From the NCBI GenBank assembly GCA_041661605.1, contig JBAZUE010000001.1, positions 786-64,785 on the forward strand: a DNA stretch of 64,000 nucleotides, written 5' to 3'. The DNA is from Candidatus Omnitrophota bacterium (GTDB lineage Bacteria > Omnitrophota > Gorgyraeia > Gygaellales > Profunditerraquicolaceae). The first letter of the stretch is position 1. Each line of letters opens with the position of its first letter. Below are positions 14,711 to 62,126 of the stretch, piece by piece. The position numbers and the translations under genes were made by a program. Under the pieces are notes generated by a model that made no database searches, was not told the DNA's origin, and saw only the letters and a program-made list of their open reading frames with translations.

Positions 14711-15622
14711 ATGAAGAATGAAGTAAAAGCGCGTGAATTCAATATCCTGGTTGTTGAGGACGATGATAATACGTTTAAGGCCATAAAAAACGGCCTGATA
14801 AATCCGGAGTATAAGCTGCACCGGGTGACTACGGGCCAGGAAGCAATCAGCTTGGCCAAAGAAGGTTATTTTGTCGGTATTATCACAGAGATGCAGATCG
14901 GCGACATGAACGGCATTGAATTAGTGCGCCGGCTTAAGAAAATAGACCAGCGGATTAATATAATCGGCCTGACTGTTTATGCCTTTGTCAATTTAGCCGT
15001 AGAGGCAATGAAGGAAGGCGTTTACGCTTATCTGATGAAACCCATAAATAACGATGAGCTTAATTTAGTCTTAAGGCGGGCGATAGAAAATACATTCCTT
15101 CTGATCCAGGCAGGGCAAAGGAAATATTATCAGGATATCGCCACAATGGACGGCTTGACCGGTGTTTATAATCACCGCCATTTTCATGAAATGCTGGATT
15201 GGAATATTTCGCACTTGAACCGCTCCCCCCAGGCGTTCTCTTTGTTTATTACCGATATCGATAATTTTAAGAAATACAATGATACTTACGGCCACGTGGA
15301 AGGGGATAAAATACTGCACAATTTCGCCCAGCTTTTAGTCAGCTCTACCAGGGATAATGATATGGTTTTTAGATATGGCGGAGAGGAGTTCGCGGTGATC
15401 CTCTCGCAGACAGACCAATTCGGCGCGCAGAAAGTAGGGGAGAGGTTATTGACAATAGTAAGGAGCAAGATGCCTATAACCATGAGCGTGGGTTTAGCCA
15501 GCTTTCCCGTGAATGCCCAGGTTAAAAGTGAGTTGGTCGTGCGCGCCGATAAAGCGCTTTACCGGGCAAAGAGCACAGGAAAAGACAGATTGTGCACTTA
15601 TGACGAGAAGATAGACAAATGA
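14711..15622 (+). CDS. Receiver-domain / GGDEF diguanylate cyclase (GGEEF active site, RxxD I-site)
   Basis: The N-terminal CheY-like fold has the VVEDDD acidic pocket, T in IIGLTVYA and K in LMKPI. The C-terminal GGDEF domain carries RDNDMVFRYGGEEF (GGEEF at nt 15377-15391). The stop overlaps the next gene's start (ATGA). Confidence 0.85.
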   Translation: MKNEVKAREFNILVVEDDDNTFKAIKNGLINPEYKLHRVTTGQEAISLAKEGYFVGIITEMQIGDMNGIELVRRLKKIDQRINIIGLTVYAFVNLAVEAMKEGVYAYLMKPINNDELNLVLRRAIENTFLLIQAGQRKYYQDIATMDGLTGVYNHRHFHEMLDWNISHLNRSPQAFSLFITDIDNFKKYNDTYGHVEGDKILHNFAQLLVSSTRDNDMVFRYGGEEFAVILSQTDQFGAQKVGERLLTIVRSKMPITMSVGLASFPVNAQVKSELVVRADKALYRAKSTGKDRLCTYDEKIDK

Positions 15623-15831
15623 AAAATATAACTATTATCCTGATAATGTTAATCAGTACTTTAGGCCCGTCAGGGGTTATTGCTGCAGTAGGTTTTTCCG
15701 GGGTTAAAGCCATCGGCAGGAATCCTTCGGCAGCTCCCAAGATATTGATTTCGATGATATTGGCTTTTGTTTTCGCCGAGGCCATAGCTATAATCGGGCT
15801 TCTGGTTGTATATAACTTGTTCGGGCAGTAA
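15619..15831 (+). CDS. atpE: F-type ATPase subunit c
   Basis: This 70-aa two-helix hairpin has the GRNPSAAP loop and a carboxylate in helix 2 (FAEAIAIIGLLVV). Confidence 0.8.
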   Translation: MKNITIILIMLISTLGPSGVIAAVGFSGVKAIGRNPSAAPKILISMILAFVFAEAIAIIGLLVVYNLFGQ

Positions 15832-15849: not shown

Positions 15850-16611
15850 ATGCTGGTATGGCAGATCATTCTTATTCAAATAGCTACTTTTGCCTTGATT
15901 GTTTTATTTTTGCGTTGGCTTCTTTACAGCCATATCAGCCGGGCGCTGGAGAGGCTGCAAAAACTTAACCAGCAAAACCTGGAAAAAGAGAAGGTGCTTA
16001 AGGAGGAGTTTGAGCGGGCAAGAAAACAGGCGGAAATCGAGATCCAGCAGGGTAAGGTTGAGGCTGAGAATATAAAAGAACAGGCGAAGGAAGAAGGAGA
16101 AAAGACAAGAAGGAATTTACTTGAGTCTTCCAAAGAAGAGGCAAAGCGTATTGTCAATGAGGGGGTCAGGGACAGCCAGAGAAAGTATAATGACCTGCTT
16201 TTGGAGATGCAGGATAAGGCGGTATATCTGGCAGTAGATATCGTAAGGTATATTTTTACGGAGAGGATCCGCCGGTCTTTACATGAACAGGTTATCGATG
16301 AACTGATTGAGGATGTATCCGGATTGGATAAGGAAAAGATAAGGGCTCAGGGAGATAAGGCGGAGATTGTCTGCGCTTATCCGTTGGGTTCAGACCAGAA
16401 ACAGCGCCTGCAGCAGGCATTATCTAATAAGCTGGAACGTAATATTATACTGGAGGAGACCCCTGATCCGGAGATTGTAGGTGGCTTGATTATACGCTTA
16501 AGCGGGTTCGTGGTTATTGACGGCAGTATCAAGAATAAATTTAAAAGAATATTGCCGATAATGAAAGATAAGGCCAGGGCGGGCATTGTTGAGCAGGCGG
16601 AGAAGAAATAA
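15850..16611 (+). CDS. atpF: F-type ATPase subunit b fused to a delta (OSCP) C-terminal domain
   Basis: An N-terminal TM helix is followed by a long charged coiled coil (b-like). The C-terminus, AEIVCAYPLGSDQKQRLQQALSNKLERNIILEETPDPEIVGGLIIRLSGFVVIDGSIKNKFKRI, matches the delta C-terminal pattern. No separate delta gene is present. Confidence 0.7.
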   Translation: MLVWQIILIQIATFALIVLFLRWLLYSHISRALERLQKLNQQNLEKEKVLKEEFERARKQAEIEIQQGKVEAENIKEQAKEEGEKTRRNLLESSKEEAKRIVNEGVRDSQRKYNDLLLEMQDKAVYLAVDIVRYIFTERIRRSLHEQVIDELIEDVSGLDKEKIRAQGDKAEIVCAYPLGSDQKQRLQQALSNKLERNIILEETPDPEIVGGLIIRLSGFVVIDGSIKNKFKRILPIMKDKARAGIVEQAEKK

Positions 16612-18078
16612 ATGCAGGAGATAAATTTAAAACCATTAGAAATAAAGGACGTAGGCACGGTTAGAGAAATCAAGGGCGGGGTAATTAAAATAGGAGGGCT
16701 TGCTTCCTGCGTAAACGGCCAGTTAATCGAACTTGCCCCCGATTTAATGGGGATGGTAATAGGTTTTACCAAGAGGGATGTCTTGGTCCTGGTCCTTGGC
16801 GATGAAAATAAGGTGCATATCGGCGATACTGTTTATGGTGAAGAAGGGGTTTTTGAAATCCCCGTGGGTAGTAATTTCCTGGGCCGGGTAGTAAATACTT
16901 TTGGCCAGCCATTAGACGGTAAAGGAAAGATCGAAGGGGTTGATTCCTATCCGATTTTTAGAAACGCTCCCGGCGTCCTGGACAGGACTCCTATCGTGGA
17001 GTCATTCCTTACCGGTACCAAGATAATCGATACCTGTATCCCCTTGGGTAAAGGCCAAAGGGAGCTTATCCTTGGGGACAGGGTTACCGGAAAGACCACC
17101 CTGGTTATTGACGCAATTATAAATCAAAAAGATAAAGATGTGATCTGTATATATTGCTGGATAGGAGGAAGCCAGTCGGCGTTTTTGAAGATTATGGAAC
17201 AGCTGAGATTAAGCGGCGCAATGGATTGGACTATTGTTGTCGCAGCCTCGGCGTCTGCTTCTCCGGCAGAGCAATATCTTGTTCCCTATGCCGCTTGCGC
17301 CTTAGGCGAATATTTCATGGATCATGGCCGGGATGTTTTCTGCGCTTTTGATAACCTGAGCAGGCATGCCTGGATTTACCGTGAAATCTCCCTGCTTTTA
17401 GAGAGAAGCCCGGGAAGAGAGGCTTATCCCGGGGATATATTTTATATCCATTCCCAGTTAATGGAAAGGGCAGGCAAGCTAAACGAAGAAAAGGGCTCAG
17501 GCTCAATGACATTTTTGCCTATAGTAGAAACTCAGGAAGGGGATATTACCGGTCTTGTCCAGTCAAACCTTGTTTCAATAACCGACGGGCAAATTTATAT
17601 GAGTGCTTCTCTTTTTAATGAAGGTTTCCGGCCGGCTATTGATTTAGGGCTTTCTGTTTCGCGAATCGGAAGCAAGGTTCAGTGTGAAGCGATAAAAAAA
17701 GTCAGCCGGTCATTAAAGAGAGAGTTTGCCCAGTATAAGGAGCTGGCCGCCCTTACAACAATCAGGACAAAACTTTCCGCTGATATAGAGCTGCGTTTAA
17801 AAAGAGGCCAGGCATTAAAAGATTTCCTTATCCAGGATAAAACAAAGCCTCTTTGCGTAGAGGAGATGATCGTGCTTTTCTATGCTTTCAATAAAGAGCT
17901 GCCTGAGGTTTTGGAAGATGCGCAGAGAGCAAATTTTAAGCAGCATATATACGATTATCTGCTCAAGAACCATCCGGAATTGATCGAGGAGCTTACGATC
18001 CAGAAATTCCTGACCGGAGGGGTAGAAAGAGGCCTGGATAAGGCATTTGAGGAGTTTTTTGCAGGTTCCGGCAGTTAA
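16612..18078 (+). CDS. atpA: F1 ATPase alpha subunit (divergent)
   Basis: It carries Walker A GDRVTGKT, plus PGREAYPGDIFYIHSQLMERA, ITDGQIYM and RPAIDLGLSVSRIG. The start codon follows immediately after the upstream stop. Confidence 0.85.
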   Translation: MQEINLKPLEIKDVGTVREIKGGVIKIGGLASCVNGQLIELAPDLMGMVIGFTKRDVLVLVLGDENKVHIGDTVYGEEGVFEIPVGSNFLGRVVNTFGQPLDGKGKIEGVDSYPIFRNAPGVLDRTPIVESFLTGTKIIDTCIPLGKGQRELILGDRVTGKTTLVIDAIINQKDKDVICIYCWIGGSQSAFLKIMEQLRLSGAMDWTIVVAASASASPAEQYLVPYAACALGEYFMDHGRDVFCAFDNLSRHAWIYREISLLLERSPGREAYPGDIFYIHSQLMERAGKLNEEKGSGSMTFLPIVETQEGDITGLVQSNLVSITDGQIYMSASLFNEGFRPAIDLGLSVSRIGSKVQCEAIKKVSRSLKREFAQYKELAALTTIRTKLSADIELRLKRGQALKDFLIQDKTKPLCVEEMIVLFYAFNKELPEVLEDAQRANFKQHIYDYLLKNHPELIEELTIQKFLTGGVERGLDKAFEEFFAGSGS

Positions 18079-18093: not shown

Positions 18094-18990
18094 ATGATAC
18101 CGCTGACGATATTACGCAAAGATTTAGCGTTTAATAAAGTAATGGAAAATATAATCGAAGTTTTAAAGGGGGTAGCCGCCACCGAATATTTCCATCTCCA
18201 GACAAAAAGAAAAAGTTTTGATGAGTTTGAGGGCCGTCTCAGGGATTTGTTCGCTCAGGTAGATATCCATGATTTCCAGCATCCTTTCTTAGGGGCTGAG
18301 GCCTCTTCAAATAATATCGTGATGATAACCTCGGATACCGGTTTCCTGGGTGAGCTTAATATGTCGGTAATAAATTATGGCTTGAGCCAGCATAGAGAGG
18401 CTGATCTGCTTACGGTAGTCGGCAAGGAAGGGGTCAGGTATATAGGAGAGCATGGCATCAAGTACGATAGTTTCGCCGGTATTGATGACGATATATCTTA
18501 TGGGCCGGTGGTAAAATTAAGAGACCACATAATAAAGCAGTTTTTTGATAAGAAATTAAGCAATACAGTGATTATCTATCCGCATTTTATTTCTTTTTCC
18601 GTACAGAAGATTGAACAGTTCCAGCTGTTTCCCTGCCGGTTTTTATTCCCGCAGGCGCAGAAATCCGCCGGGCCGGGGGAGAGCCAGACCGGTTTTTGGC
18701 AGGTCGATCCGGAAGAGAAAATAATCCTGGACTCACCCCTAAAGACAATTGTGGAATACCTGGTTAAAGTCTGGATCGGCCAGTTGATCCACCTCATCTT
18801 TTGGGAGAGTAAGCTTTCTGAATGGGCAGCGCGGGTAATGCATTTAGAAAGAAGTACCACCGAAATCAGGGACCAGCAGAAAAAGATGAGATTGCAATAT
18901 TTCCGGACTTTGCACGAAAGAAGCGATAAGAGTACCAGGGAGATTTTTGTCAGCAGGATGGCTTTGATAAAAAGCGGGGCCATATTATAA
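18094..18990 (+). CDS. atpG: F1 ATPase gamma subunit (divergent)
   Basis: It lies between alpha and beta. It has an N-terminal helix, the central [12 protein letters not shown] motif, and a C-terminal helix ([34 protein letters not shown]) that follows the gamma pattern. Confidence 0.7.
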
Positions 18991-19015: not shown

Positions 19016-20425
19016 ATGCAGGAAGGCAGGGTTGTTTCAGTCCAGGGGCCGATTGTAGATATAGAGTTTCCTCCTGAATCGTCTTTTCCGGCTGTATATG
19101 ACATTATTGAGACAGAGACATTTGACGGCTCAAGGATAGTGCTTGAGGTGGTCGAATATTTAAGCAAGGCCGAAAACGATAAGACCAATACTATGAGATG
19201 CATTTCCTTGACTCCTAATTTTGGTCTGCGCAGGAATGCCAAGGCTTTTGCTACCGGTGCAACCATAAGCGTCCCCGTCGGAGATGTAACCTGTTCCCGG
19301 ATATTGAATGTGTTAGGCGAACCGGTGGATAAAAAAGGGGCGATTAAGGTTGGTCCGGAATTTATCAGGCCTACCCATAAAAAGCATCAAATAGCCACGG
19401 TTGATACCGGTGACGGCAAGGAGAAAAAATTTGAAGTAATGCAGACAGGCATTAAAATGTTTGATTTGTTGTTTCCTTTAATCAAGGGCTCAAGGAACGG
19501 TATCTTAGGAGGGGCGGCTTGCGGCAAGAGCGTAATTATCCTTGAGCTAATGCATAATATTATTAAGATGCAGAAAGGTTATTGCGTTTTTACCGGCGCA
19601 GGGGAGCGGACCAGGGAAGGTAATGAGTTATATTATGAACTGGAGAAACAGGGGATCCTGAACAGGTCGGCCCTGGTGTTTGGCCAGATGAATGAATCCC
19701 CCGGGGCAAGGTTTGAAGTAGTGCATACCGGCCTGACCCTGGCTGAGAATTTTGCCGAGAAAGGCGAAGACGTCTTGTTGTTTGTGGATAATGTTTACAG
19801 ATTTGCCCAGGCAGGAAGCGAGTTGTCTACTCTTTTAGGCAGGATTCCTTCTGAAACAGGCTATCAGCCTACTCTGCCGACAGAGATGGCTGAGTTCCAG
19901 GAGAGGATCCGCTCAAGCGGCCAGGCTTCAATTACCGCGATGGAAGCGGTCTATGTGCCTTCTGACGATTTGACTGACCCGGCAGTTGTCTGTATATTCA
20001 GCTATTTGGATTCTATAGTCATTCTCTCCCGTAGGTATGTGCAACTGGGCCTTTTTCCTGCGATTGACGCTTTAACTTCTTCCTGTTCTTTTCTTGACCC
20101 GGTGATCATTGGGAAAAGGCATTTTAAGACTGCCCAGGATGTCTTAAGGACCCTTAATAGGTATGAAGAGCTCAGGCGTATCGTCGCTATCGTAGGCGTC
20201 GAGGAACTTTCCGGAGGAGACAGAATTATATTTGAAAGGGCGCAAAAACTGCAGAATTTTCTTACCCAGCCGTTTTTTACTGCTGAAGCTTATACAGGTA
20301 AAAAAGGGGAGTATGTATCTTTAGAGGCAACTTTAGAGGGCTGCGACAGGATAGTCGCAGGCGAGGTAGATAAAATAGCCGCGGAGAGATTTTATATGAT
20401 AGGGTCCTTACCTATGGAGTTATAA
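19016..20425 (+). CDS. atpD: F1 ATPase beta subunit (divergent P-loop GGAACGKS)
   Basis: Motifs present are [48 protein letters not shown] and [11 protein letters not shown]. The DELSEED-equivalent reads EELSGGD. Confidence 0.85.
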
Positions 20426-20456
20426 GGCAAGATTATAAACAGGGAGATTAAAAGAA

Positions 20457-22181
20457 ATGATAATTAAAATAGGCCAGATGTTGATTAACAAAAAATTAAT
20501 TACCTCTGAACAACTAGAGTCGGCCCTGCAGGAACAGGGAAAAACGGGCGAGCTTTTGGGGTTAATCCTGGTTAAAAAAGGTTTTTTAACCGAGGAGGAT
20601 TTCTTAAAAGTACTTTCCGAGCAATTTAATGTTCCTTTCATAAAATTAAAAGAAACCACTATTGATCCTTCAGCGATAAAAAAGGTTCCTGCCAAATTCG
20701 CCTGGTATTATAAAGTTATGCCGGTTAAGTTCGTGGATAATAAATTAGTTATCGCATCTAGCGACCCCCTGCGATCGCTGGATGATTTAAGAATATTTTT
20801 AGGTTATGACTTAAAGCCCGCTTTGGCTTCGGAAGCTGAAATAATGGAAACGATTAAAGAGCATTACGGAGTAGGCGCTGAGACTGTGGAAGGCATTATT
20901 GCCAAGGCTCCAAAAGAAACCCGGGAGCAGGAAGCGCCAAAAGAAACAGGCAAGATTGAGGATATAGAAAAATTAGCCGAAGATGCCTCGGTAGTCAAGC
21001 TGGTAAATCAGATAATCCTGGAGGCTTACCAGAAGAGGGCTACCGACATCCATATTGAACCCTTCCGGGGGAAAATGAATATAAGGTACCGCATTGACGG
21101 GGTGCTTTATAACGCCAATGTCCCGGCGGATATCGAACGTTTCTTCCTGGCGATTATTTCACGCATAAAGATAATGTCCAGGTTAAATATTGTGGAGCGC
21201 CGTCTTCCTCAGGACGGACGTACTGTAATAAAGATAGGGCAGGAGGAATTGGACCTTAGAATTTCCATTATCCCGACTCGTTATGGCGAGGGCATGGTTA
21301 TAAGGATCCTTCCCATGAGCATGCTTTTTAGCTTAGAGAGATTGGGCCTGGTCCCTGAGGATTTAGAAATACTGGCAAGGTTAATCAAGAAACCTCACGG
21401 CATAATCCTGGTTACCGGGCCGACCGGCAGCGGCAAGAGCACTACTTTGTATGGATGCTTGAATGATATTAAAAGCAGCAAGAATAAGATTATTACCATT
21501 GAGGACCCTATAGAATATGAACTGGAAGGTATAATCCAGATCCAGGTTTTACCGGAGATAGGCTTTACCTTTGCCCAGGGATTAAGAAGCATATTGAGGC
21601 ATGACCCGGATATCATGATGGTGGGGGAGATCAGGGACTTTGAGACCGCGGAGCTGGCAATCAGGAGCGCCTTAACCGGGCATTTGGTTTTTTCCACCTT
21701 GCACACAAATGACGCTGCCGGGGCCGTGGCCAGGCTGCTTAATATCGGCATTGAACCATACTTGGTAGCTTCTTCCGTAGAGGCATTTATTGCCCAAAGG
21801 CTGGTGCGTTTAATCTGCCCGGAATGTAAAGAAATAGATACAGCAGTGCCGGATAATATCAGGACAATAATAAGCCAGGATGTTGCCAAGAGCAACATAG
21901 GGTTAAAACACTTAAGGGCCGCGGAGATTAAATTTTATAAGGGCAGGGGTTGTAAGGATTGCAACTTTACCGGTTATAAAGGAAGGACAGCAATCCATGA
22001 GATATTGGTAGTGGACAAAGCGATAAGAGAGCTGATGTTAAAGAAGGCATCAACCGATGAATTGAGGGATAAGGCGGTCAGCCAGGGGATGAAGACATTG
22101 CGTTTATGCGGATGGAAAAAGGTTATCGACGGACTGACTACTCCCGAAGAGATACTAAGAGTAACCCAGGCGGAGGAGTAG
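20457..22181 (+). CDS. gspE: Type II secretion / type IV pilus assembly ATPase (GspE/PilB/MshE family)
   Basis: It has an N-terminal T2SSE_N-type domain, Walker A GPTGSGKST, His box TGHLVFSTLHTND and a tetracysteine motif (CPEC...CKDC). Confidence 0.9.
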   Translation: MIIKIGQMLINKKLITSEQLESALQEQGKTGELLGLILVKKGFLTEEDFLKVLSEQFNVPFIKLKETTIDPSAIKKVPAKFAWYYKVMPVKFVDNKLVIASSDPLRSLDDLRIFLGYDLKPALASEAEIMETIKEHYGVGAETVEGIIAKAPKETREQEAPKETGKIEDIEKLAEDASVVKLVNQIILEAYQKRATDIHIEPFRGKMNIRYRIDGVLYNANVPADIERFFLAIISRIKIMSRLNIVERRLPQDGRTVIKIGQEELDLRISIIPTRYGEGMVIRILPMSMLFSLERLGLVPEDLEILARLIKKPHGIILVTGPTGSGKSTTLYGCLNDIKSSKNKIITIEDPIEYELEGIIQIQVLPEIGFTFAQGLRSILRHDPDIMMVGEIRDFETAELAIRSALTGHLVFSTLHTNDAAGAVARLLNIGIEPYLVASSVEAFIAQRLVRLICPECKEIDTAVPDNIRTIISQDVAKSNIGLKHLRAAEIKFYKGRGCKDCNFTGYKGRTAIHEILVVDKAIRELMLKKASTDELRDKAVSQGMKTLRLCGWKKVIDGLTTPEEILRVTQAEE

Positions 22182-22188
22182 GAAGGGA

Positions 22189-22428
22189 ATGTTCAAAGTA
22201 TCGGTGCTGGATATAAAGACAGCTTCAACTATATTCCAGGAATTGGCCTCTTCAGTTGTACTGCCGGGAGATGAAGGGGAACTTTCTATACTGGATTTTC
22301 ATCAGCCGGTTATCTCCTGTCTTAAAGACGGCATAATCAGAATAGACAGCAAGCCTCCTATGGTTATTAAGAACGGTATCGCCAGTATGCAGGATAATGA
22401 ATTAATAGTGTTGGTGGAGAAGAAATAA
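22189..22428 (+). CDS. atpC: F1 ATPase epsilon subunit, N-terminal beta-sandwich domain only (79 aa)
   Basis: FKVSVLDIKTASTIFQELASSVVLPGDEGELSILDFHQPVISCLKDGIIRI...IKNGIASMQDNELIVLVE aligns by eye with the epsilon NTD (GELGIL.GH.P pattern). No C-terminal helical hairpin is present. Confidence 0.75.
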   Translation: MFKVSVLDIKTASTIFQELASSVVLPGDEGELSILDFHQPVISCLKDGIIRIDSKPPMVIKNGIASMQDNELIVLVEKK

Positions 22429-22429
22429 T

Positions 22430-23683
22430 ATGCCGATATTCATTTATAAAGCAAAGAACGGCCCGCAAGAGGTTATTGAAGGGACTGTTGAGGCAGTGAC
22501 TAAGGAAGCAGCTGTTAGTAAGATAGAGCAGATGGGCTATGTCCCTATCCGGATTAATCTTAAAGAAGAGTCTCGCACCGCTGCTGCCGGAAAACCTCCG
22601 GAAAATAAAAATTCCGCTGTCGGGGCCGGGAATTTAGGGTTGTTTAACAGGGTTGGTTCATATGATTTAAATGTATTTACTGAACAGCTGGCTACTTTAG
22701 TTAAGTCCAAAGTGCCGCTTTTTGAAGCCATAAATATCCTTTCTTCGCAGACGGAAAATCCCAAGCTTAAGCTGATAATAACTTCTATATCCGGTGAATT
22801 AAAAGACGGTAAGACTCTGTCGGAGGCCTTAAGCAAATATCCCCAGGTCTTTCCTTTGCTATACGTTAATATGGTCCGCTCAGGAGAATCAGGCGGGGTT
22901 TTAGACGAGACCTTAACCAGGCTGGCTAAATTCCGTGAAGAACAGGAAGAGGTAAGAGCGAATATAAGCTCAGCCCTGGCCTATCCGATCTTTATAACAA
23001 TAGTAGGCTTGATTACGGTTATCATTCTGCTTACTTTTGGTATCCCGCGTTTGGTTTCTATGTTCAGCGAAACCAAACAGGCCCTGCCGCTGCCTACCAG
23101 GATTTTGATTTCAATAAGCAGCGGGATCAGGAACTACTGGTATTTGGGCGTAATGTTTATAGCCATGCTTATTTTTATGTTAAAACAAAAGCAGGCAAAT
23201 AGGAAGAAAAAGGTCATCTTTGATAAAATCATATTAAGGTTACCCATTTTGGGTAAATTTAACAAAAAAGCTATGTTGGCAGAATTTACCCGGACCTTTG
23301 CCCTGCTTTTGGCTAATGGCGTACCGGTACTTGAGGCGCTTCAGATAACTGTACCGACAATAAATAATGAAATATTCAAATCGGAGCTGGAAAAGGTGCA
23401 TAGTGATATTATCGTAGGCACCCCGCTTTCGCAGAGCATGAAAAAGTCCAGCTGGTTCCCGCCATTCCTGACCAATATGATCGCGGTAGGAGAAAGAGGG
23501 GGTAATCTGCAGGAGGTATTATTGGAGGTGGCAGTTTTTTACGAACGCGAAGTAAGAAAGATAAATAAAATAATGACTTCCTTGCTTGAACCGGCGATAA
23601 TCTTAGTCATGGGTTTAATTGTAGGTTTTATTGTCATGGCGATGCTTCTGCCTATTTTTGAGATCAATATGGCGGTAAGATAA
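22430..23683 (+). CDS. gspF: Type II secretion / type IV pilus platform protein (GspF/PilC family)
   Basis: This 417-aa protein has a duplicated T2SSF-type domain and three TM segments. It begins 1 nt after the epsilon stop. Confidence 0.9.
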   Translation: MPIFIYKAKNGPQEVIEGTVEAVTKEAAVSKIEQMGYVPIRINLKEESRTAAAGKPPENKNSAVGAGNLGLFNRVGSYDLNVFTEQLATLVKSKVPLFEAINILSSQTENPKLKLIITSISGELKDGKTLSEALSKYPQVFPLLYVNMVRSGESGGVLDETLTRLAKFREEQEEVRANISSALAYPIFITIVGLITVIILLTFGIPRLVSMFSETKQALPLPTRILISISSGIRNYWYLGVMFIAMLIFMLKQKQANRKKKVIFDKIILRLPILGKFNKKAMLAEFTRTFALLLANGVPVLEALQITVPTINNEIFKSELEKVHSDIIVGTPLSQSMKKSSWFPPFLTNMIAVGERGGNLQEVLLEVAVFYEREVRKINKIMTSLLEPAIILVMGLIVGFIVMAMLLPIFEINMAVR

Positions 23684-23699: not shown

Positions 23700-24116
23700 A
23701 TGAAGGCAAAAAGAGCATTTACGCTCATAGAATTGATGCTGGTGGTCATAATTATCGGAGTTTTGGGGGCAATGGTGTTGCCAAGGCTGGCTGGCCGTTC
23801 CGAGCAGGCAAAATCAGCGGTGGCCAAGACAGATATCAACGCCAATATAGCAACTGCCCTGGATCTTTATGAACTGGATAATGGCCGCTATCCTACTACG
23901 GAACAGGGGCTGGCCGCCCTCGGGACAAAACCGGGGGATCTTTCCGAAGGTTCAAATTGGAACGGACCTTATCTTAAAAAAGAGCCCAAAGACCCATGGG
24001 GCAAGGACTATCAATATAAATATCCCGGAACGCATGAAGGCGTAGACTATGATTTGTATTCTTTGGGAGCAGACGGTATAGAGAGCGATGATGACATCGG
24101 AAACTGGAAAAAATAA
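23700..24116 (+). CDS. gspG: Major pseudopilin GspG
   Basis: It has the prepilin leader with FTLIELMLVV, and the GspG-type body AKTDI...ALDLYELDNGRYPTTEQGL...GPYLKK.PKDPWGKDYQYKYPG...YDLYSLGADG. Confidence 0.9.
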   Translation: MKAKRAFTLIELMLVVIIIGVLGAMVLPRLAGRSEQAKSAVAKTDINANIATALDLYELDNGRYPTTEQGLAALGTKPGDLSEGSNWNGPYLKKEPKDPWGKDYQYKYPGTHEGVDYDLYSLGADGIESDDDIGNWKK

Positions 24117-24486
24117 AGGTTTTACATTAATTGAGATAATGATCAGCATAGCCATCCTGTCGTTAGGCCTGATCCTGATTCTTCAGGGGCTCACTCAGTG
24201 TCTTAACATCCTGCGTATTTCCCAGAACAACCTGGAAACAAGTTTATTGGCCGAGGAAAAGATGGCGGAGATGGAGATAGCCGTTAAGCAGGATAAGGAG
24301 ATGTTTTCTAAAGATACAAGCGGAGAATCGCAATCCGGCAATATAGAATTCAACTGGCATGTACGCTTGAACCCTGATATGCAATATGAAGATTTGTATG
24401 AGGTCCTGACTACGGTTAACTGGACAGAAGGAAGAAGAAAGGGCTCCAGTATTTTTAACAGCTATCTAATGATTCCGCATGGTTAG
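24088..24486 (+). CDS. Minor pseudopilin (GspH/GspI-like)
   Basis: It has the prepilin-type N-terminus KGFTLIEIMISIAILSLG, is 132 aa long, and sits directly after gspG. Confidence 0.7.
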   Translation: MMTSETGKNKGFTLIEIMISIAILSLGLILILQGLTQCLNILRISQNNLETSLLAEEKMAEMEIAVKQDKEMFSKDTSGESQSGNIEFNWHVRLNPDMQYEDLYEVLTTVNWTEGRRKGSSIFNSYLMIPHG

Positions 24487-25093
24487 AAGAAATAAGGAAA
24501 ATTTCATTGCGGGCTTTACCCTGATTGAACTTATTATCAGCGGAGCGCTTATTTTCCTGGTTTCCATAACCGTTTATTCTGTCTTTGCCAGCGGGATCAG
24601 CGTTTGGAAGAGGGCTAATCAAGCCAGGAGCGCCGGTTACGGATTAAGGCTGCTTGCGGATAAGTTGAGCGTTGAATTGAGGAACGCTTTCAGGTTTTCC
24701 AGTATTCCGTTTGAGGGCAAGCAAGATTCTATTGCCTTTGCCGGGCTTATCGATAACCAGGTGGGCAGGATCAGTTATTTTCTTAATGAAGAAGATACCT
24801 TTTGCCGAAGGTTACAGAGCTATCCGGATGTTTTTAAGAAGGGGGAGTCCGGTAAATATGAATTATTGCTTCCCGGGGTTTCGAAGTTAAAGTTTAGCTA
24901 CTGTTATCTTGATAATGCAACCGGAGATTATAAGTGGAAGGATGAATGGGTAAAAGAAGAGCAGGACACTATCCCCCGGGCTGTAAAAATAGAGTTAACT
25001 TATAAAAGAAAACCTGAAGAAGAATCAAAATTTATCAAAACGATATTTATCCCTATCGGGACAGGCGAACAAAAGATAGAGCTTGTACAATAA
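24479..25093 (+). CDS. Minor pseudopilin (GspJ-like)
   Basis: It has the prepilin-type N-terminus AGFTLIELIISGALIFL and is 204 aa long. Its position matches gspJ. Confidence 0.65.
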   Translation: MVRRNKENFIAGFTLIELIISGALIFLVSITVYSVFASGISVWKRANQARSAGYGLRLLADKLSVELRNAFRFSSIPFEGKQDSIAFAGLIDNQVGRISYFLNEEDTFCRRLQSYPDVFKKGESGKYELLLPGVSKLKFSYCYLDNATGDYKWKDEWVKEEQDTIPRAVKIELTYKRKPEEESKFIKTIFIPIGTGEQKIELVQ

Positions 25094-25102
25094 AGGGCTT
25101 TT

Positions 25103-26122
25103 ATGACAAAAGAGGGCAATTGCCCGCGGGCGAGCATACTGATTATTACCCTCTGGGTGTTAGGTTTCCTGACCATCCTTGTGGTCAACCTGGGTTTTAT
25201 GGTCAGAACGCAATTACAATTTGCCGACCATCTGCAGGACAGGCTGAAGATGTATTATCTGGCCAGGGCAGGCATAGAAAGGGCGGTTGTTGAATTATAT
25301 AAAGATGAGAATAAGAGCTATGATTCTTTCAACGAGCCTTGGGCCAACAAGGAAGAGTTTTTTAAAGATTTTGCCTTTGGAGGAGGTTTTATCACACTTA
25401 AGTATCAAACCGGAAGCCTCGCCGCTCAAGAAAATATAACATTATACGGGGCAATGGATGAAAGCAGTAAAATAGATATAAATAGCCTGCCTCTGGATAT
25501 ATTAACAATTTTGCTGGAGCGTATCGGGCAAATAGAAACAGAAGAAGCAATAGATATAGCCAGGGCAATCGTGGATTGGAGGGATATAGATATTGCCGTT
25601 TTACCCGGCGGAGCGGAAGATGAATATTACCAGGGTTTGTCCTCTCCTTATAAGTGTAAAAATGGCAAATTTCAAATACTGGAGGAGTTATTGCTGGTTA
25701 AAGGTATGACCCCTGAGATATTCTCCAGGATAAAGGGGATAATCACTGTTTATGGCACAGAAAAGGTAAATATCAATACCGCAAGTTTTGATTGTCTATA
25801 CGCTTTGGGTTTAAGCAGCAGCCTGTGCGAGCGGATAATTAAATTCCGCCAGGGCAGCGATGAGATATGCGGCACCGGGGATGATTTCATTTTTAAATCC
25901 CCCAGTGATCTGATGAGCGTAGGTTCCTTATTTACCGATGAAGCCACGCAGATAAATACTTTGATTTCCAGGAATATGCTTACGGTAAGATCGGATATTT
26001 TCAGGATTAATTCCCTGGGGATTCTTAGGAATGAAAAAGGCGACCGCTCAAGAGAAATTATTTGTGTATTAAAGCGCCAGGAAGAAAAGGCGCCGAAAAT
26101 ATTATATTGGCATGAAAATTAA
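25103..26122 (+). CDS. gspK: Minor pseudopilin GspK-like
   Basis: It has the N-terminal hydrophobic segment RASILIITLWVLGFLTILV without the conserved Glu. It is 339 aa, with helix-hairpin-helix-like INTAS...L segments typical of GspK. Confidence 0.7.
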   Translation: MTKEGNCPRASILIITLWVLGFLTILVVNLGFMVRTQLQFADHLQDRLKMYYLARAGIERAVVELYKDENKSYDSFNEPWANKEEFFKDFAFGGGFITLKYQTGSLAAQENITLYGAMDESSKIDINSLPLDILTILLERIGQIETEEAIDIARAIVDWRDIDIAVLPGGAEDEYYQGLSSPYKCKNGKFQILEELLLVKGMTPEIFSRIKGIITVYGTEKVNINTASFDCLYALGLSSSLCERIIKFRQGSDEICGTGDDFIFKSPSDLMSVGSLFTDEATQINTLISRNMLTVRSDIFRINSLGILRNEKGDRSREIICVLKRQEEKAPKILYWHEN

Positions 26123-27614
26123 CTTAACGAAATTATTCCAAAAGCAGGAACAGGTTACAACCGTCTTCCAGATAGATAATAACTGGTTGAGGTTAATCCA
26201 GGTAACGACGCTTAAGCGGGAGAAAAAGGTTTCCATGATAAAGGCCATGGACATTGTTTCTTTATCCGATGAGGAGATAACCCAAAAGGTATCTGAGCTG
26301 GTTGCTGAATTAAAGATAAATTCGCGCTATCTTATCTTATCTATACCGCGCCAACTTACAACCACCAGGAACCTTGATTTGCCTTCCGCAAATCCGCTTG
26401 AGATAAAAGACATGATTGAGCTGCAGATCGGCAAGCAAACACCCTATGCCAGCGATGAAGTGATTAAGGATTACCAGATCCTGGGCAGCGGAGCCGACGG
26501 ATACAGCAAGGTGCTTTTGGTTATCGTGCACCGGGATATTGTGGGAAGGTATTTAAAAATATTAGAGTCAGCCGGGCTTAAGGCGCAAAGGGTAAGTTTT
26601 GGTTCCGAAGGACTGTTAAATTGGAGGAACCTGGCTTACCGGGAAAAACTGGCTGCTGAAAAGGTGCACATATTGATTGAAGTTGATTATGATGCCAGCG
26701 ATTTTGAGGTTGTGCTCAATGACAAGATGGTTTTTGGCAGGAGCATCTCTTTAGGTTTTTCCCAGCTTCCCGGCCAACTCGAGCAGTGGCAGAAGAAGTT
26801 TGTCGAAGAGGTAAACCATTCAATTTATGCTTACCAGAATGAAATAATGGGTAAGGAGATCGATAAGATTATAATCAGCCAGCCCAGGTTAGTCGGCGAC
26901 AGCCTGGATCAGGCCGTATTGGAAAAGGAGTTCGGCCTGCCTGTAGAGATCATAGACCAATTTAAGGATATCCCTTTTACCGAAGAAGGGGTGAGTTCTT
27001 ACAACAGCCTGATCAGGACGGATCTATCTTTTGCCGGGCTGCTCGGTTTGGGATTACCGGCTTTAGAACATAAGATTGACCTTGTCCCCCAGGAGCATCA
27101 GATTGGCAAAGCAGTTAAAGAAAAAGGCAAAGACCTTTATATCATGGGCATTCTATTGGTGTTTATCCTGGTTGCTTTTTCCGGAGTATTTTTAGGGAGA
27201 ATGTATAATAAAGAACGGTATTTAGGCCAGCTAAAGCAGCGCCTCGGAGAAATCCAGAATAAAACCAAAGAGCTAAATAGCATGATCCGGGGGATAGAGA
27301 CAATCAAAGACCGGGTTTATACAAGGGGTATGTCGCTTAACCTTCTATATGAGGTGCACCGCTCAGTCCTGCCCGAAATGTATTTAAACTCCGTAAGCTT
27401 TGACGGAAAACAAGAGCTGACTTTGCGGGGCGAGTCCAATGAAATGTCGGAGGTTTTTAACTTTGTTAATAAATTGGAAGAATCAGCGTATTTTCAGAAC
27501 GTTAAGTCAAAATACGCGACCAAGCGCAAGGAGGGGGATAAGGAGATGACGGATTTTGAGATTTCCTGTCCTTTGGCGGATAAATATAAAATTACCGATA
27601 AATACAAATTATAA
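26112..27614 (+). CDS. PilM-like actin-fold assembly protein fused to a PilN-like TM / periplasmic region (GspL-equivalent)
   Basis: The N-terminal ~330 aa follow the PilM pattern. Then come a TM helix (LYIMGILLVFILVAFSGVFLG), a coiled coil and a small C-terminal domain, as in PilN/GspL. Confidence 0.65.
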   Translation: MKINLTKLFQKQEQVTTVFQIDNNWLRLIQVTTLKREKKVSMIKAMDIVSLSDEEITQKVSELVAELKINSRYLILSIPRQLTTTRNLDLPSANPLEIKDMIELQIGKQTPYASDEVIKDYQILGSGADGYSKVLLVIVHRDIVGRYLKILESAGLKAQRVSFGSEGLLNWRNLAYREKLAAEKVHILIEVDYDASDFEVVLNDKMVFGRSISLGFSQLPGQLEQWQKKFVEEVNHSIYAYQNEIMGKEIDKIIISQPRLVGDSLDQAVLEKEFGLPVEIIDQFKDIPFTEEGVSSYNSLIRTDLSFAGLLGLGLPALEHKIDLVPQEHQIGKAVKEKGKDLYIMGILLVFILVAFSGVFLGRMYNKERYLGQLKQRLGEIQNKTKELNSMIRGIETIKDRVYTRGMSLNLLYEVHRSVLPEMYLNSVSFDGKQELTLRGESNEMSEVFNFVNKLEESAYFQNVKSKYATKRKEGDKEMTDFEISCPLADKYKITDKYKL

Positions 27615-27620
27615 ATAAAA

Positions 27621-28154
27621 ATGGAATTTCTATCAAGGTTATCTAAAAAAGAAAGACGCCTGTTTTATATCGCGGTGACGGTGGTGGCCGTTGTTTTTCT
27701 TGACAGGGTGGTCTTCAGGCCCGTCCTGAATAAACTGGAAAGTTTTAACGGGAAGATCTCCCTGGAGGAAAAAAAGCTGGAGAAGTCATTGCTTATACTG
27801 GGGCAGGAATCGGCCATAACGCAAGAATACAAGAAATTTGCTCAAAGTATAAAACAGGAACAGTCTGATGAAGAAACGATAGCCAGCCTGCTTAGCAGTA
27901 TAGAAAAAATGGCCAAGAGTGTTTCTGTTTTTATCCTGGATATGAAGCCGGCCCCGGTAGAAAAAGCGGAGTTTTATAAAAAATACGCCGTAAAGATCGA
28001 AGCCGAGGCAAAAATCAGCAACTTGACAGATTTTATTTATCAACTGGAAAATTCTCCTAATTTACTCAGGGTGGCGGATTTCCGCATTACTCCCCAGAAA
28101 AAAGAAACTGTTTTAAAAATTAATATGACAGTTACCGAGGTTTTGATTAATTAA
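27621..28154 (+). CDS. PilO/GspM-like bitopic assembly protein
   Basis: This 177-aa protein has an N-terminal TM (LFYIAVTVVAVVFL), a coiled coil and a ferredoxin-like C-terminal region. It is the last gene of the cluster. Confidence 0.55.
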   Translation: MEFLSRLSKKERRLFYIAVTVVAVVFLDRVVFRPVLNKLESFNGKISLEEKKLEKSLLILGQESAITQEYKKFAQSIKQEQSDEETIASLLSSIEKMAKSVSVFILDMKPAPVEKAEFYKKYAVKIEAEAKISNLTDFIYQLENSPNLLRVADFRITPQKKETVLKINMTVTEVLIN

Positions 28155-58805: not shown

Positions 58806-58836
58806 GCTAAAACTCAAAGAAATAAGCGGAGCGGAT

Positions 58837-60492: not shown

Positions 60493-60495
60493 TTT

Positions 60496-61710: not shown

Positions 61711-62126
61711 TGCGCCCGCTGCTTTGGCCAGGCTCATTCAAGAAAGATAAAAGCGGCCTGCTTCTTTTGGATTTGGCTGTTTCTTTGACAATTATCGGGT
61801 TTTTGATCTGGATATTCGGCGGCTTTATCGGAAGACTTACGCAGAATTCCCGTGAGGTTGCCCTGCGTTACCAGCTGAATAATTTCCGTATGCTGCTTGT
61901 GTTGTATAAGGAATTAAAAGGACATTATCCGGAGGATTTAAAAGAACTTGTTCAATCCAGGCACAGGCTATCTAAAACGGATGAGCTTATCTTCAAAGAG
62001 AAATTCTTAAGTTCAGTTGAGCAGGATGAACATGGTGCTCCGTTAGATGCCTTTGGCATGCGTCTTTATTATGATTCCAGGAAGGGGGTGGTTGGTTCAA
62101 CAACAAAAGGTTATGAAAATTGGTAG
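61710..62126 (+). CDS. Hypothetical bitopic protein with a degenerate prepilin-like N-terminus
   Basis: KSG/LLLLDLAVSLTIIGFLIWIFGG has Gly then Asp at +5, where prepilins have Glu. It is 138 aa and its ATG overlaps the upstream stop. Confidence 0.45.
   Translation: MRPLLWPGSFKKDKSGLLLLDLAVSLTIIGFLIWIFGGFIGRLTQNSREVALRYQLNNFRMLLVLYKELKGHYPEDLKELVQSRHRLSKTDELIFKEKFLSSVEQDEHGAPLDAFGMRLYYDSRKGVVGSTTKGYENW

What the first reader, a model, noticed from the sequence alone, without database searches (positions are those of the whole stretch)
20426..22430. Epsilon is displaced from beta by gspE and lacks its regulatory C-terminal helices
The 79-aa ORF at 22189-22428 aligns by eye along the whole epsilon N-terminal beta-sandwich (VSV...PGDEGELSILDFHQPVISCLKDGIIRI...NGIASMQDNELIVLVE). 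It then stops where the two C-terminal helices, which inhibit ATP hydrolysis in many bacteria, would begin. It is wedged between the secretion ATPase and the platform protein, with gaps of 7 nt and 1 nt. A CTD-less epsilon predicts an enzyme without epsilon-mediated auto-inhibition, meaning one free to run as an ATPase.
Basis: partly seen in the sequence, partly recalled or inferred. Interest (0 to 1): 0.7.

Follow-up and report, generated by a model that had tools for sequence, protein, structure and literature searches.

The report
Short epsilon inside Omnitrophota ATPase–pilus operon
The 79-residue gene is a genuine ATP-synthase epsilon subunit reduced to its beta-sandwich half, and it belongs to an F-type ATPase whose genes are woven into a pilus/secretion operon, a locus type already reported in the phylum Omnitrophota and still of unknown function.

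Summary
The ORF at 22189-22428 is an F-ATPase epsilon N-terminal beta-sandwich: Pfam PF02823 E=1e-13, AF2 pLDDT 97, and Foldseek hits that are all epsilon (TM 0.86-0.89). It stops exactly where the C-terminal helices would start. It lies 7 nt after gspE and 1 nt before gspF.

It is not an accident. The length and stop position are conserved, dN/dS is 0.04-0.10, and 136 of the 150 best 50%-identity cluster representatives are 100 aa or shorter.

The wider context changes the reading. Sixteen co-directional genes with gaps of 31 nt or less form one block: peptidase_MA, RR-GGDEF, c, b/delta, alpha, gamma, beta, GspE(MshEN), epsilon, GspF, pseudopilins, PilMN and PilO. Across the related Omnitrophota loci epsilon occupies three different slots: GspE-eps-GspF in 29, beta-eps-GspE in 1, and eps-c... 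in 11. The ATPase-GspE-GspF linkage is always kept.

No a subunit was found in the 64-kb window or within about 10 kb in any locus.

Seymour et al. 2023 already described these 'symbiotic', non-respiratory F-type ATPase/T4aP loci. They did not discuss epsilon, its truncation or the missing a subunit.

Lack of the epsilon C-terminal domain (CTD) is consistent with an ATP-driven enzyme but does not prove it. Short epsilons also occur in ordinary beta-epsilon operons.

Verdict: a real feature, a new member of a known kind, of moderate interest.

The parts
87..13643 (+). Giant ORF (4518 aa) with a C-terminal hydrophobic anchor; upstream neighbour of the cluster
   Evidence: ORF list. Giant ORFs also lie upstream of the same cluster in L004, L005, L036, L040 and L041.
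13907..14692 (+). Secreted Peptidase_MA-like metalloprotease (HEMGH motif); conserved first gene of the block
   Evidence: Pfam PF13485 E=6e-7, 29.8 bits, below the gathering score of 32.4. Homologues lie upstream of the ATPase genes in most loci of arrangements A, B and C.
14711..15622 (+). Response regulator with a GGDEF diguanylate cyclase domain; its stop overlaps the c-subunit start by 4 nt
   Evidence: Pfam Response_reg plus GGDEF, E=1e-40. Present in most related loci.
15619..15831 (+). F-type c subunit (70 aa) with a conserved RNP loop and FAE carboxylate
   Evidence: Pfam ATP-synt_C E=8e-8, above the gathering score. The motifs are invariant in 28 loci.
15850..16611 (+). b/delta fusion: N-terminal TM helix, b coiled coil, and only the C-terminal half of delta
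   Evidence: Pfam ATP-synt_B (residues 7-133) plus OSCP (residues 168-234, matching profile positions 102-168 of 172). It aligns full-length but sub-threshold to the N-ATPase b model TIGR03321.
16612..18078 (+). F1 alpha subunit, N-terminally shortened
   Evidence: TIGR00962 scores 544.6 bits against a cut-off of 484, and the alignment starts at model position 22. PDB alignment matches residue 8 to residue 22 of Bacillus alpha. The Walker A motif and the SVSRIG arginine finger are conserved.
18094..18990 (+). Divergent F1 gamma subunit
   Evidence: Pfam ATP-synt scores 102.5 bits against a gathering score of 39.9. TIGR01146 scores 75 bits against a cut-off of 194.
19016..20425 (+). F1 beta subunit with catalytic motifs intact; DELSEED replaced by EELSGGD
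   Evidence: TIGR01039 scores 537 bits against a cut-off of 463. PDB alignment. Motif survey.
20457..22181 (+). GspE/PilB-type assembly ATPase with an N-terminal MshEN c-di-GMP-binding motif
   Evidence: Pfam T2SSE E=3e-129 and MshEN E=1e-17. NF053729 scores 65 bits against a cut-off of 38. The GspE and PilB equivalog models both score below their cut-offs.
22189..22428 (+). Epsilon subunit consisting of the N-terminal beta-sandwich only (79 aa)
22430..23683 (+). GspF/PilC platform protein
   Evidence: Pfam T2SSF, two copies, E=6e-67. TIGR02120 scores 375 bits against a cut-off of 424.
23700..26122 (+). Four pseudopilin genes: GspG-like major, one N-methyl minor, GspJ-like and GspK-like
   Evidence: Pfam T2SSG, N_methyl, T2SSJ and T2SSK_1st.
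26112..28154 (+). PilM-PilN fusion (GspL-like) and PilO/GspM-like protein; end of the co-directional block
   Evidence: Pfam PilM_2, PilN, PilO and T2SSM_b. A 55-nt gap follows, and the next gene is an unrelated chorismate-binding enzyme.

Best explanation
The 79-aa ORF is a functional, NTD-only epsilon subunit. It belongs to the F-type ATPase that Omnitrophota encode inside a T2SS/type-IVa-pilus-like operon, the 'symbiotic F-type ATPase/T4aP' locus of Seymour et al. 2023. Its position between gspE and gspF is one of three gene orders found within a single conserved supra-operon. It does not reflect gspE inserting into a housekeeping atp operon.

Mechanistically, epsilon keeps only the beta-sandwich, which in canonical enzymes clamps the foot of gamma to the c-ring. 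It has lost the two helices that, in E. coli, Bacillus and chloroplast enzymes, insert into alpha3beta3 and block ATP hydrolysis. The complex (alpha3beta3, gamma, epsilon, c-ring, b/delta stalk) is therefore most likely an ATP-consuming rotary enzyme that serves the pilus/secretion apparatus rather than the cell's main ATP synthase. Control probably comes from c-di-GMP (the RR-GGDEF gene upstream and the MshEN domain on GspE) and from co-transcription.

Shown here: the identity and fold of epsilon, purifying selection on it, the conserved linkage and the three gene orders, intact catalytic residues, the conserved c-ring carboxylate, and absence of an a-subunit gene nearby.

Inferred: the direction of catalysis, the absence of auto-inhibition, any physical or energetic coupling to the pilus machine, and c-di-GMP control.
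For: Identity and fold: Pfam, NCBIfam, PDB profile, hhalign, AF2 and Foldseek all agree.

Selection and fixed length.

Single transcription unit is likely: 16 genes lie on one strand with gaps of 31 nt or less or with overlaps. The scan for intrinsic terminators shows none in an intergenic gap within 13.9-28.1 kb.

Conserved linkage:
- Arrangement A (GspE-eps-GspF) occurs in 29 loci, B (beta-eps-GspE) in 1, and C (eps-c-b/d-alpha-gamma-beta-GspE-GspF) in 11.
- GspE follows beta, or beta-epsilon, in every family locus with enough downstream sequence (with covering the four overlapping-ORF cases).
- The closest full-length epsilons (138 and 120 aa) lie in ordinary operons without pilus genes.

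Catalytic competence: the beta Walker A and GERxREG motifs and the alpha Walker A and arginine finger are conserved in all loci. The DELSEED-equivalent motif is less acidic.

Non-canonical stator:
- Only the C-terminal half of delta is present.
- Alpha lacks about 14 N-terminal residues.
- No a subunit was found by PROSITE pattern, by phmmer, or by Pfam scans of every polytopic ORF in the window. GspF is the only real polytopic gene in any locus; the two other candidate ORFs are antisense to ATPase genes.

Literature: PMC10066038 reports non-respiratory F-type ATPase genes adjacent to T4aP clusters in 56 of 111 Velamenicoccia species. It also reports that 57 of 66 contigs carry the two systems within 10 kb.
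Against: - Alpha and beta score above NCBI's trusted cut-offs for canonical atpA and atpD. They resemble solved F1 subunits (440-480 bits) more than the Mycoplasma G1-ATPase beta (310 bits). The catalytic head is therefore indistinguishable from that of a reversible synthase.
- The c subunit's carboxylate and RNP loop are invariant. This argues that ion translocation still matters and that an a subunit, or an analogue, exists somewhere. I could not search whole genomes.
- NTD-only epsilons also occur in ordinary contexts (L048; NCBIfam short models). Loss of the CTD therefore does not by itself mark a hydrolase.
- There is no expression, interaction or activity data.
Confidence: 0.6

Rival explanations
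1. This is an ordinary, reversible housekeeping F1Fo ATP synthase whose a subunit is encoded elsewhere. The adjacency to T2SS/T4P genes reflects only shared regulation or genome compaction. The short epsilon is a neutral lineage trait, as in other bacteria with NTD-only epsilon.
For: - Alpha and beta pass the canonical atpA and atpD cut-offs.
- All catalytic motifs and the c-ring carboxylate are conserved.
- Short epsilons exist in plain beta-epsilon contexts and as curated NCBIfam equivalogs.
- Whole genomes could not be searched for atpB.
Against: - No a subunit lies within about 10 kb in 40 or more loci or in the 64-kb window.
- The delta N-terminal domain and the alpha N-terminus that binds it are both missing.
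- Linkage to GspE-GspF survives three different internal gene orders, and in L001 it survives insertion of sensor genes. Chance adjacency would not be expected to do so.
- Seymour et al. place alpha in a clade separate from the 'respiratory' Omnitrophota F-ATPases.
Confidence: 0.24
2. The F-type rotor is a mechanical or energetic module of the pilus machine and works without an a subunit. ATP-driven rotation of gamma-epsilon-c-ring is transmitted in the membrane to a pilus component such as the GspF platform or PilMN/PilO. In arrangement A, epsilon is co-translated with GspE and GspF because it sits at that interface.
For: - The a subunit is consistently absent while c, b/delta and all F1 subunits are retained under selection.
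- Epsilon is interleaved between the ATPase and the platform gene in 29 loci.
- The linkage is obligate across a large, diverse family: 2456 hits, with the best 150 cluster representatives almost all short.
Against: - There is no direct evidence of any contact.
- Orthologous epsilons sit next to c or beta in arrangements B and C, so the GspE-GspF position is not essential.
- The epsilon surface motif that matches the c-ring-contacting region of E. coli epsilon is conserved, which fits an ordinary rotor role.
- The conserved c carboxylate suggests ion transport rather than pure torque transfer.
Confidence: 0.12
3. The 79-aa ORF is a decaying remnant or annotation artefact created when gspE landed between atpD and atpC, or the result of a sequencing frameshift.
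For: The only support is its small size and odd position.
Against: - dN/dS is 0.04-0.10, with identical length and stop position in 10 orthologues.
- 58 homologues are almost all 74-97 aa; the one exception is a 54-aa fragment.
- The family-wide median length is 83 aa.
- The AF2 model of a complete beta-sandwich has pLDDT 97.
- GspF starts 1 nt after the stop.
Confidence: 0.01

Closest known systems
Omnitrophota 'symbiotic' F-type ATPase / type-4a pilus loci (Seymour et al. 2023, Nat Microbiol, PMC10066038)
   Same: Same phylum and same co-location of F-type ATPase genes with pilB/pilC-type genes. The same neighbourhood of giant ORFs is present. The interpretation as non-respiratory is also the same. 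The window's closest epsilon relatives are annotated as Candidatus Omnitrophota MAGs.
   Different: The paper argues from alpha and beta phylogeny and from co-location within 10 kb. In its text and its held supplements I found no mention of the following: epsilon or its truncation, its interleaving between gspE and gspF, the three gene orders, the b/delta and alpha N-terminal peculiarities, or the missing a subunit. The paper groups alpha with Mycoplasma type 2/3. Here alpha and beta score better against the canonical atpA and atpD models.
Canonical bacterial epsilon subunit (E. coli AtpC, PDB 1aqt; Bacillus PS3, 2e5y)
   Same: The beta-sandwich fold is the same: TM(query) 0.86 and rmsd 2.0 A to 1aqt. 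The GxEGEL and H38-P motifs are conserved.
   Different: The whole two-helix C-terminal domain is absent; the protein ends at the equivalent of E. coli residue 83-84. The gene is not adjacent to atpD.
Engineered epsilon C-terminal-domain deletions of Bacillus PS3 FoF1 (PDB 8yh8, 9jc1)
   Same: The length (87 aa in 8yh8) and fold are essentially the same (rank 15). The construct shows that an NTD-only epsilon can assemble into an F1Fo complex.
   Different: Those are laboratory truncations. Here the truncation is natural, ancient and family-wide.
Mycoplasma Type 2/Type 3 F1-like ATPases (Beven et al. 2012, PMC3369863; M. mobile G1-ATPase, PDB 9io5)
   Same: Both are extra, non-respiratory F1-derived ATPases in host-dependent, reduced-genome bacteria. 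Both have alpha-, beta-, gamma- and epsilon-like subunits and no a subunit, and both are proposed to power surface motility or attachment.
   Different: The Mycoplasma clusters have seven genes, with no recognisable c, b or delta and three proteins unique to them. The Omnitrophota cluster keeps clear c and b/delta genes. Its alpha and beta fall below the NCBIfam cut-offs of the Mycoplasma families.
N-ATPase (alternate F1Fo, operon atpDCQRBEFAG)
   Same: The b subunit carries a delta-like C-terminal extension, and there is no separate delta gene. The best NCBIfam hit for the b/delta protein is the N-ATPase b model TIGR03321, aligned over its full length.
   Different: All N-ATPase models score far below their cut-offs (alpha 497 against 750, beta 477 against 752, b 66 against 225). 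There are no atpQ or atpR genes and no a subunit, and the gene order differs.

Membership tests
F-ATPase epsilon subunit (ATP-synt_DE_N / AtpC) | N-terminal beta-sandwich domain recognised by the family profile | tested here: met
   PF02823 scores 51.3 bits against a gathering score of 27, E=1.1e-13. AF2 pLDDT is 97.1 and the Foldseek top hits are all epsilon.
F-ATPase epsilon subunit (ATP-synt_DE_N / AtpC) | C-terminal two-helix regulatory domain (full-length equivalog TIGR01216, 130 positions) | tested here: not met
   Only model positions 9-80 align. The score is 53.3 bits against a cut-off of 67.25. The model has no helix. The protein ends at the equivalent of E. coli residue 83.
F-ATPase epsilon subunit (ATP-synt_DE_N / AtpC) | Gene immediately downstream of atpD (beta) | tested here: not met
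   gspE (1725 nt) lies between beta and epsilon. The same order is found in 29 loci. The canonical order is kept in only one family locus, L036.
Canonical F1Fo ATP synthase | alpha3beta3 catalytic head with intact nucleotide-binding and catalytic residues | tested here: met
   atpA scores 544.6 bits against a cut-off of 484.45, and atpD scores 537.2 against 462.85. The motifs are conserved.
Canonical F1Fo ATP synthase | c-ring subunit with an ion-binding carboxylate | tested here: met
   PF00137 scores 32.8 bits against a gathering score of 24. The FAE glutamate and RNP loop are invariant in 28 loci.
Canonical F1Fo ATP synthase | a subunit (ATP-synt_A) providing the ion half-channels and the essential arginine | tested here: not met
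   None was found in the 64-kb window or in about 10 kb of flanking sequence in any locus. The tests were a PROSITE PS00449 regex, phmmer with E. coli AtpB, and Pfam scans of every polytopic window ORF. Presence elsewhere in the genome could not be tested.
Canonical F1Fo ATP synthase | Full delta/OSCP subunit whose N-terminal domain binds the alpha N-terminus | tested here: not met
   Only OSCP profile positions 102-168 of 172 match, and they are fused to b. The alpha alignment starts at model position 22.
Omnitrophota 'symbiotic' F-type ATPase/T4aP locus (Seymour et al. 2023) | F-type ATPase alpha and beta genes within 10 kb of a T4aP-type cluster in an Omnitrophota genome | tested here: met
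   The beta stop and the gspE start are 31 nt apart. The nearest relatives are Omnitrophota MAGs.
Omnitrophota 'symbiotic' F-type ATPase/T4aP locus (Seymour et al. 2023) | Alpha subunit falls in the 'symbiotic' clade, distinct from the respiratory Omnitrophota alpha | not tested
   No phylogeny was built here. HMM scores show only that alpha is nearer to canonical atpA than to the Mycoplasma families.
Mycoplasma Type 2/3 F1-like ATPase | Alpha and beta reach the family-specific models (MMOB1660/1670, MSC_0619/0618) | tested here: not met
   Scores against cut-offs are 400 vs 600, 381 vs 850, 316 vs 520 and 368 vs 570 bits.
Mycoplasma Type 2/3 F1-like ATPase | Seven-gene cluster without c, b or delta homologues, with three cluster-specific proteins | tested here: not met
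   c and b/delta are clearly present. The cluster definition comes from PMC3369863.
N-ATPase | Family models for alpha, beta and b, plus atpQ/atpR and the order atpDCQRBEFAG | tested here: not met
   All three models score below their cut-offs, and the gene order and content differ.
Type II secretion system / type IVa pilus | Assembly ATPase, platform protein, major and minor (pseudo)pilins, and an alignment subcomplex | tested here: met
   Pfam hits for T2SSE, T2SSF, T2SSG, T2SSJ, T2SSK, PilM/PilN and PilO.
Type II secretion system / type IVa pilus | Outer-membrane secretin (GspD/PilQ) in the cluster; equivalog-level GspE/GspF or PilB/PilC | tested here: not met
   No secretin was found among the window ORFs scanned. 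GspE scores 577 against a cut-off of 630, PilB 560 against 676, and GspF 375 against 424.

The most novel reading that the evidence does not exclude
In these bacteria an F-type rotary motor (alpha3beta3, gamma, NTD-only epsilon, c-ring, b/delta stalk) has lost its proton-channel a subunit altogether. It has been recruited as a working part of a T2SS/T4P-like nanomachine. ATP-driven rotation of the c-ring would be coupled in the membrane to the GspF platform or the PilMN/PilO alignment complex. Alternatively, it would energise secretion of the neighbouring giant surface protein. The epsilon gene's migration to the gspE-gspF junction would reflect assembly at that interface.
Probability: 0.12. 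Interest if true: 0.9.

Novelty: new member of a known kind. Interest (0 to 1): 0.5.

Why it matters
Omnitrophota are ultra-small, probably predatory or parasitic bacteria. The F-ATPase/pilus locus, next to giant surface-protein genes, is one of their few phylum-wide signatures of host interaction, and its function is unknown.

This analysis sharpens the problem. The ATPase keeps an intact catalytic head, a c-ring with a conserved carboxylate and a rotor-coupling epsilon. It has lost the epsilon brake, the delta-alpha N-terminal attachment and, at least locally, the a subunit.

That gives concrete, testable predictions: whether atpB is present in complete genomes, whether the enzyme is latent or constitutively active, and whether it co-localises with the pilus basal body. 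If the a subunit is truly absent, this would be a second independent case, after the Mycoplasma gliding motors, of an F1-type motor repurposed for surface mechanics. It would be the first such case to retain a c-ring.

If the a subunit is simply elsewhere, the locus is a housekeeping enzyme with an unusual address, and the finding is ordinary.

Tried and rejected
1. AF2 with the shallow 21-sequence alignment gave an unusable model (pLDDT 54.8). It was replaced by the 150-sequence run.
2. PDB 8yh8_H (87 aa) first looked like a natural short epsilon. Foldseek's description shows it is an engineered CTD deletion of Bacillus PS3, so I did not use it as evidence for natural short epsilons.
I then listed every ORF with four or more predicted TM helices and scanned those in the window with Pfam. 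Nothing was found.
4. Mining the supplements of Seymour et al. for per-genome atpB (K02108) calls reached only three genomes, because the file was cut. One of them (genome 221) has alpha and beta KOs with no a, b or c KOs. Since b and c were also missed there, this may reflect sequence divergence or an incomplete MAG. It is not decisive.
5. The 2026 complete-genome preprint reports alpha and beta in 125 of 176 genomes and gamma in 30 of 176. It gives no a-subunit count.
6. Literature searches for natural CTD-less epsilons in Bacteroidota or Chlorobiota found nothing usable in the held library. That point rests on the NCBIfam short models, on L048, and on my recollection of the Feniouk et al. 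2006 review.
7. Attempts to assign taxa to distant short epsilons failed. The listing of cluster members returned no names, and the search for homologous proteins with P0175 returned only the query itself.
8. The promoter and terminator scans were uninformative. Promoter counts were close to the shuffled expectation, and terminator-like sites were only modestly above it (27 against 18.4, sd 4.3).
9. N-ATPase and Mycoplasma type 2/3 membership were considered and rejected on model cut-offs and gene content.

Full report
**1. The observation**

The window carries, all on the + strand, the following genes:
- F-ATPase beta, 19016-20425
- a GspE/PilB-type ATPase, 20457-22181
- a 79-codon ORF, 22189-22428
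- GspF/PilC, 22430-23683

The ORF is an epsilon N-terminal domain by every test I could run:
- Pfam PF02823 matches at E=1.1e-13, above the gathering score, and spans almost the whole 80-position profile.
- The full-length equivalog TIGR01216 aligns only its first 80 of 130 positions.
- A profile of the family finds solved epsilon chains at E=2e-10.
- hhalign pairs residues 6-78 with E. coli epsilon residues 6-83. The GDEGEL motif lies on E. coli GSEGEL, which contains E31, a residue I recall cross-links to the c-ring (the cross-link is from memory of Zhang and Fillingame 1995).

A first AF2 run on a shallow alignment failed (pLDDT 54.8). With 150 diverse relatives the model reached pLDDT 97.1, with eight strands and no helix. 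All 50 best Foldseek matches in the PDB are F-ATPase epsilon or mitochondrial delta. The best have TM(query) 0.86-0.89 and rmsd 1.3-2.0 A.

**2. Not an artefact**

- Ten close orthologues have exactly 79 codons with the stop in the same place, and dN/dS is 0.04-0.10.
- The 58 relatives in the 90%-clustered protein collection are almost all 74-97 aa; the one exception is a 54-aa fragment.
- In a search of 1.84 billion cluster representatives, the family profile found 2456 proteins at E<=1e-3. Of the best 150, 136 are 100 aa or shorter, with a median of 83, and only six are 120 aa or longer.

The truncation is an old, selected, family-wide trait. No frameshift could restore a C-terminal domain, because gspF starts 1 nt after the stop.

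**3. What the surroundings show**

The epsilon gene is one of sixteen co-directional genes between 13907 and 28154. All gaps are 31 nt or less, or the genes overlap:
- a Peptidase_MA-like protease
- a response regulator with a GGDEF domain, whose stop overlaps the next start
- F-type c
- a b/delta fusion
- alpha, gamma and beta
- GspE with an N-terminal MshEN c-di-GMP-binding motif
- epsilon
- GspF
- four pseudopilins (G-like, one minor, J-like, K-like)
- a PilM-PilN fusion
- PilO

A 4518-aa ORF lies just upstream. No intrinsic terminator is predicted in any intergenic gap of the block.

**4. Related loci**

The nearest relatives are Candidatus Omnitrophota MAGs. I collected 49 loci and classified their gene orders with phmmer. 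Three arrangements occur:
- Arrangement A, GspE-eps-GspF as in the window: 29 loci (counting the window itself), plus two probable cases at contig starts. It includes epsilons down to 39% identity (L034).
- Arrangement B, beta-eps-GspE: one locus (L036).
- Arrangement C, eps-c-b/delta-alpha-gamma-beta-GspE-GspF-PilMN-PilO: 11 loci. These include Ca. Makaraimicrobium thalassicum (L040) and two distant metagenomic representatives (L042, L044).

In every family locus with enough sequence downstream of beta, GspE comes next, or after epsilon. The four apparent exceptions are overlapping-ORF cases that are visible. In L001 a PAS protein and a Cache/HAMP/PAS histidine kinase are inserted between gamma and beta, yet the linkage persists.

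By contrast, the closest full-length epsilons (138 and 120 aa) lie in ordinary delta-alpha-gamma-beta-epsilon or beta-epsilon operons without pilus genes.

So gspE did not displace epsilon from a housekeeping operon. The ATPase and pilus genes form one conserved unit, and epsilon has moved around inside it.

**5. The ATPase itself**

The catalytic head looks competent:
- Alpha and beta exceed NCBI's trusted cut-offs for atpA and atpD.
- They align to solved F1 subunits at 440-480 bits, against 310 bits for the Mycoplasma mobile G1-ATPase beta.
- The Walker A motifs, the beta GERxREG motif and the alpha SVSRIG arginine finger are conserved in all loci.

The c subunit is strongly conserved, with an invariant RNP loop and FAE carboxylate.

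Three features are non-canonical:
- The b/delta protein contains only the C-terminal half of delta, OSCP profile positions 102-168.
- Alpha lacks the N-terminal segment that in canonical enzymes binds the delta N-terminal domain. Its alignments start at model or structure residue 22.
- The DELSEED motif is replaced by the less acidic EELSGGD or EELSxE[D/N].

Most notably, I found no a subunit. The PROSITE pattern and a phmmer search with E. coli AtpB both found nothing. The only real polytopic gene of 150-450 aa in any locus is GspF; two other candidate ORFs are antisense to ATPase genes. Every polytopic ORF in the 64-kb window belongs to another Pfam family. Whether atpB lies elsewhere in these genomes could not be tested.

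**6. What is already known**

Seymour et al. 2023 (PMC10066038) reported several points:
[quoted passage not shown] - 57 of 66 contigs carry both systems within 10 kb.

Neither their text nor the held supplements mention epsilon, its truncation, its interleaving, or the a subunit. West-Roberts et al. 2023 describe T2SS-like loci next to Omnitrophota giant genes without mentioning the ATPase. A 2026 preprint notes alpha and beta in 125 of 176 complete genomes but gamma in only 30 of 176 at strict thresholds. That fits the divergent gamma seen here (75 bits against a cut-off of 194).

The locus type is therefore known. The window is a further member, and the epsilon details are additions.

**7. 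Mechanism**

Shown:
- Epsilon retains the beta-sandwich and the motif that matches the c-ring-contacting region of E. coli epsilon.
- It lacks the helices that, from established work on the E. coli, Bacillus PS3 and chloroplast enzymes, extend into alpha3beta3 and inhibit hydrolysis.

Inferred:
- Epsilon acts purely as the gamma-to-c-ring coupling element, and the enzyme has no epsilon-type brake.

Together with the altered stator, the locally missing a subunit and the obligate linkage to a pilus assembly ATPase and platform, the best reading is an ATP-consuming rotary enzyme dedicated to the pilus/secretion apparatus. The RR-GGDEF gene and the MshEN domain suggest c-di-GMP control. I put this reading at about 0.6.

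The main rival, at about 0.24, is a normal reversible synthase with atpB encoded elsewhere. It is kept alive by the canonical scores of alpha and beta, by the invariant c carboxylate, and by the existence of NTD-only epsilons in ordinary contexts. Examples of the latter are L048, an 87-aa epsilon directly after beta with no pilus genes, and the NCBIfam epsilon equivalogs of 88 and 102 positions.

The most novel reading, at about 0.12, is an a-less rotor mechanically coupled to the pilus platform. It is not excluded, but it has no direct support.

**8. Membership**

- The protein is a member of the epsilon N-domain family but fails the full-length epsilon equivalog.
- The complex meets the alpha, beta and c criteria for F1Fo. 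It fails on the a subunit (locally), on full delta and on gene order.
- It fails the Mycoplasma type 2/3 and N-ATPase models.
- It meets the operational definition of the Omnitrophota symbiotic F-ATPase/T4aP locus.
- The pilus part is a T2SS/T4P hybrid. It has a G-type major pseudopilin, J and K minor pseudopilins and PilM/N/O. GspE/PilB and GspF score below their equivalog cut-offs, and no secretin is found in the window.

**9. Verdict**

This is a new member of a known kind, with undescribed details: a family-wide NTD-only epsilon, three gene orders, no nearby a subunit, and a trimmed delta-alpha contact. Interest is moderate (0.5). The underlying puzzle is real and now sharply testable, but the locus type has been published and nothing here demonstrates function.

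Noticed in passing
window 87-13643: A 4518-aa ORF with many similar units of about 170 aa visible in the translation and a C-terminal hydrophobic anchor. No DNA-level tandem repeats of that size were found. Giant ORFs sit in the same position upstream of the cluster in L004, L005, L036, L040 and L041.
   Followed up: partly
window 13907-14692: A Peptidase_MA-like secreted metalloprotease (HEMGH) is the conserved gene between the giant ORF and the ATPase genes in arrangements A, B and C. It may process the giant protein.
   Followed up: partly
window 14711-15622 and 20457-20630: A response-regulator diguanylate cyclase overlaps the c-subunit start by 4 nt. The GspE in the same operon carries tandem MshEN c-di-GMP-binding motifs (NF053729 above its cut-off). 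This looks like a built-in c-di-GMP signal and receiver pair.
   Followed up: partly
L031 3700-6162: A single 821-aa ORF contains alpha (residues 9-491) and gamma (residues 538-818) in frame. This is either a real alpha-gamma fusion, which is hard to reconcile with 3:1 stoichiometry in a rotary motor, or a sequencing error that removed the stop.
   Followed up: partly
L033 11222-18791 (complete chromosome CP070797.1): Alpha is cut to 309 aa and followed by a 2280-aa ORF, and no gamma, beta or GspE follows. This may be a degraded or rearranged copy of the cluster.
   Followed up: no
L001 3425-6851: A PAS protein and an 895-aa Cache/HAMP/PAS histidine kinase are inserted between gamma and beta, inside the ATPase gene set. 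The rest of the cluster is intact.
   Followed up: no
window 55956-63774: A second pilus/secretion set: GspE with MshEN, GspF, and two N-methyl pilin-like genes. It follows a 949-aa PAS histidine kinase and has no ATPase genes. No secretin was found in the window.
   Followed up: partly
L048 2758-3021 and L049 10001-10261: NTD-only epsilons (87 and 86 aa) occur outside the pilus-linked cluster. One lies directly after beta in an otherwise ordinary context, and one is an orphan with no atp neighbours. The taxa are unknown.
   Followed up: partly
window 43809-44546: An IS200-like Y1 transposase gene lies among transporter and glycine-cleavage/lipoate genes.
   Followed up: no
window 1-64000: Essentially all long ORFs are on the + strand, and cumulative GC skew rises across almost the whole 64 kb. 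This fits strong co-orientation of genes with replication.
   Followed up: no
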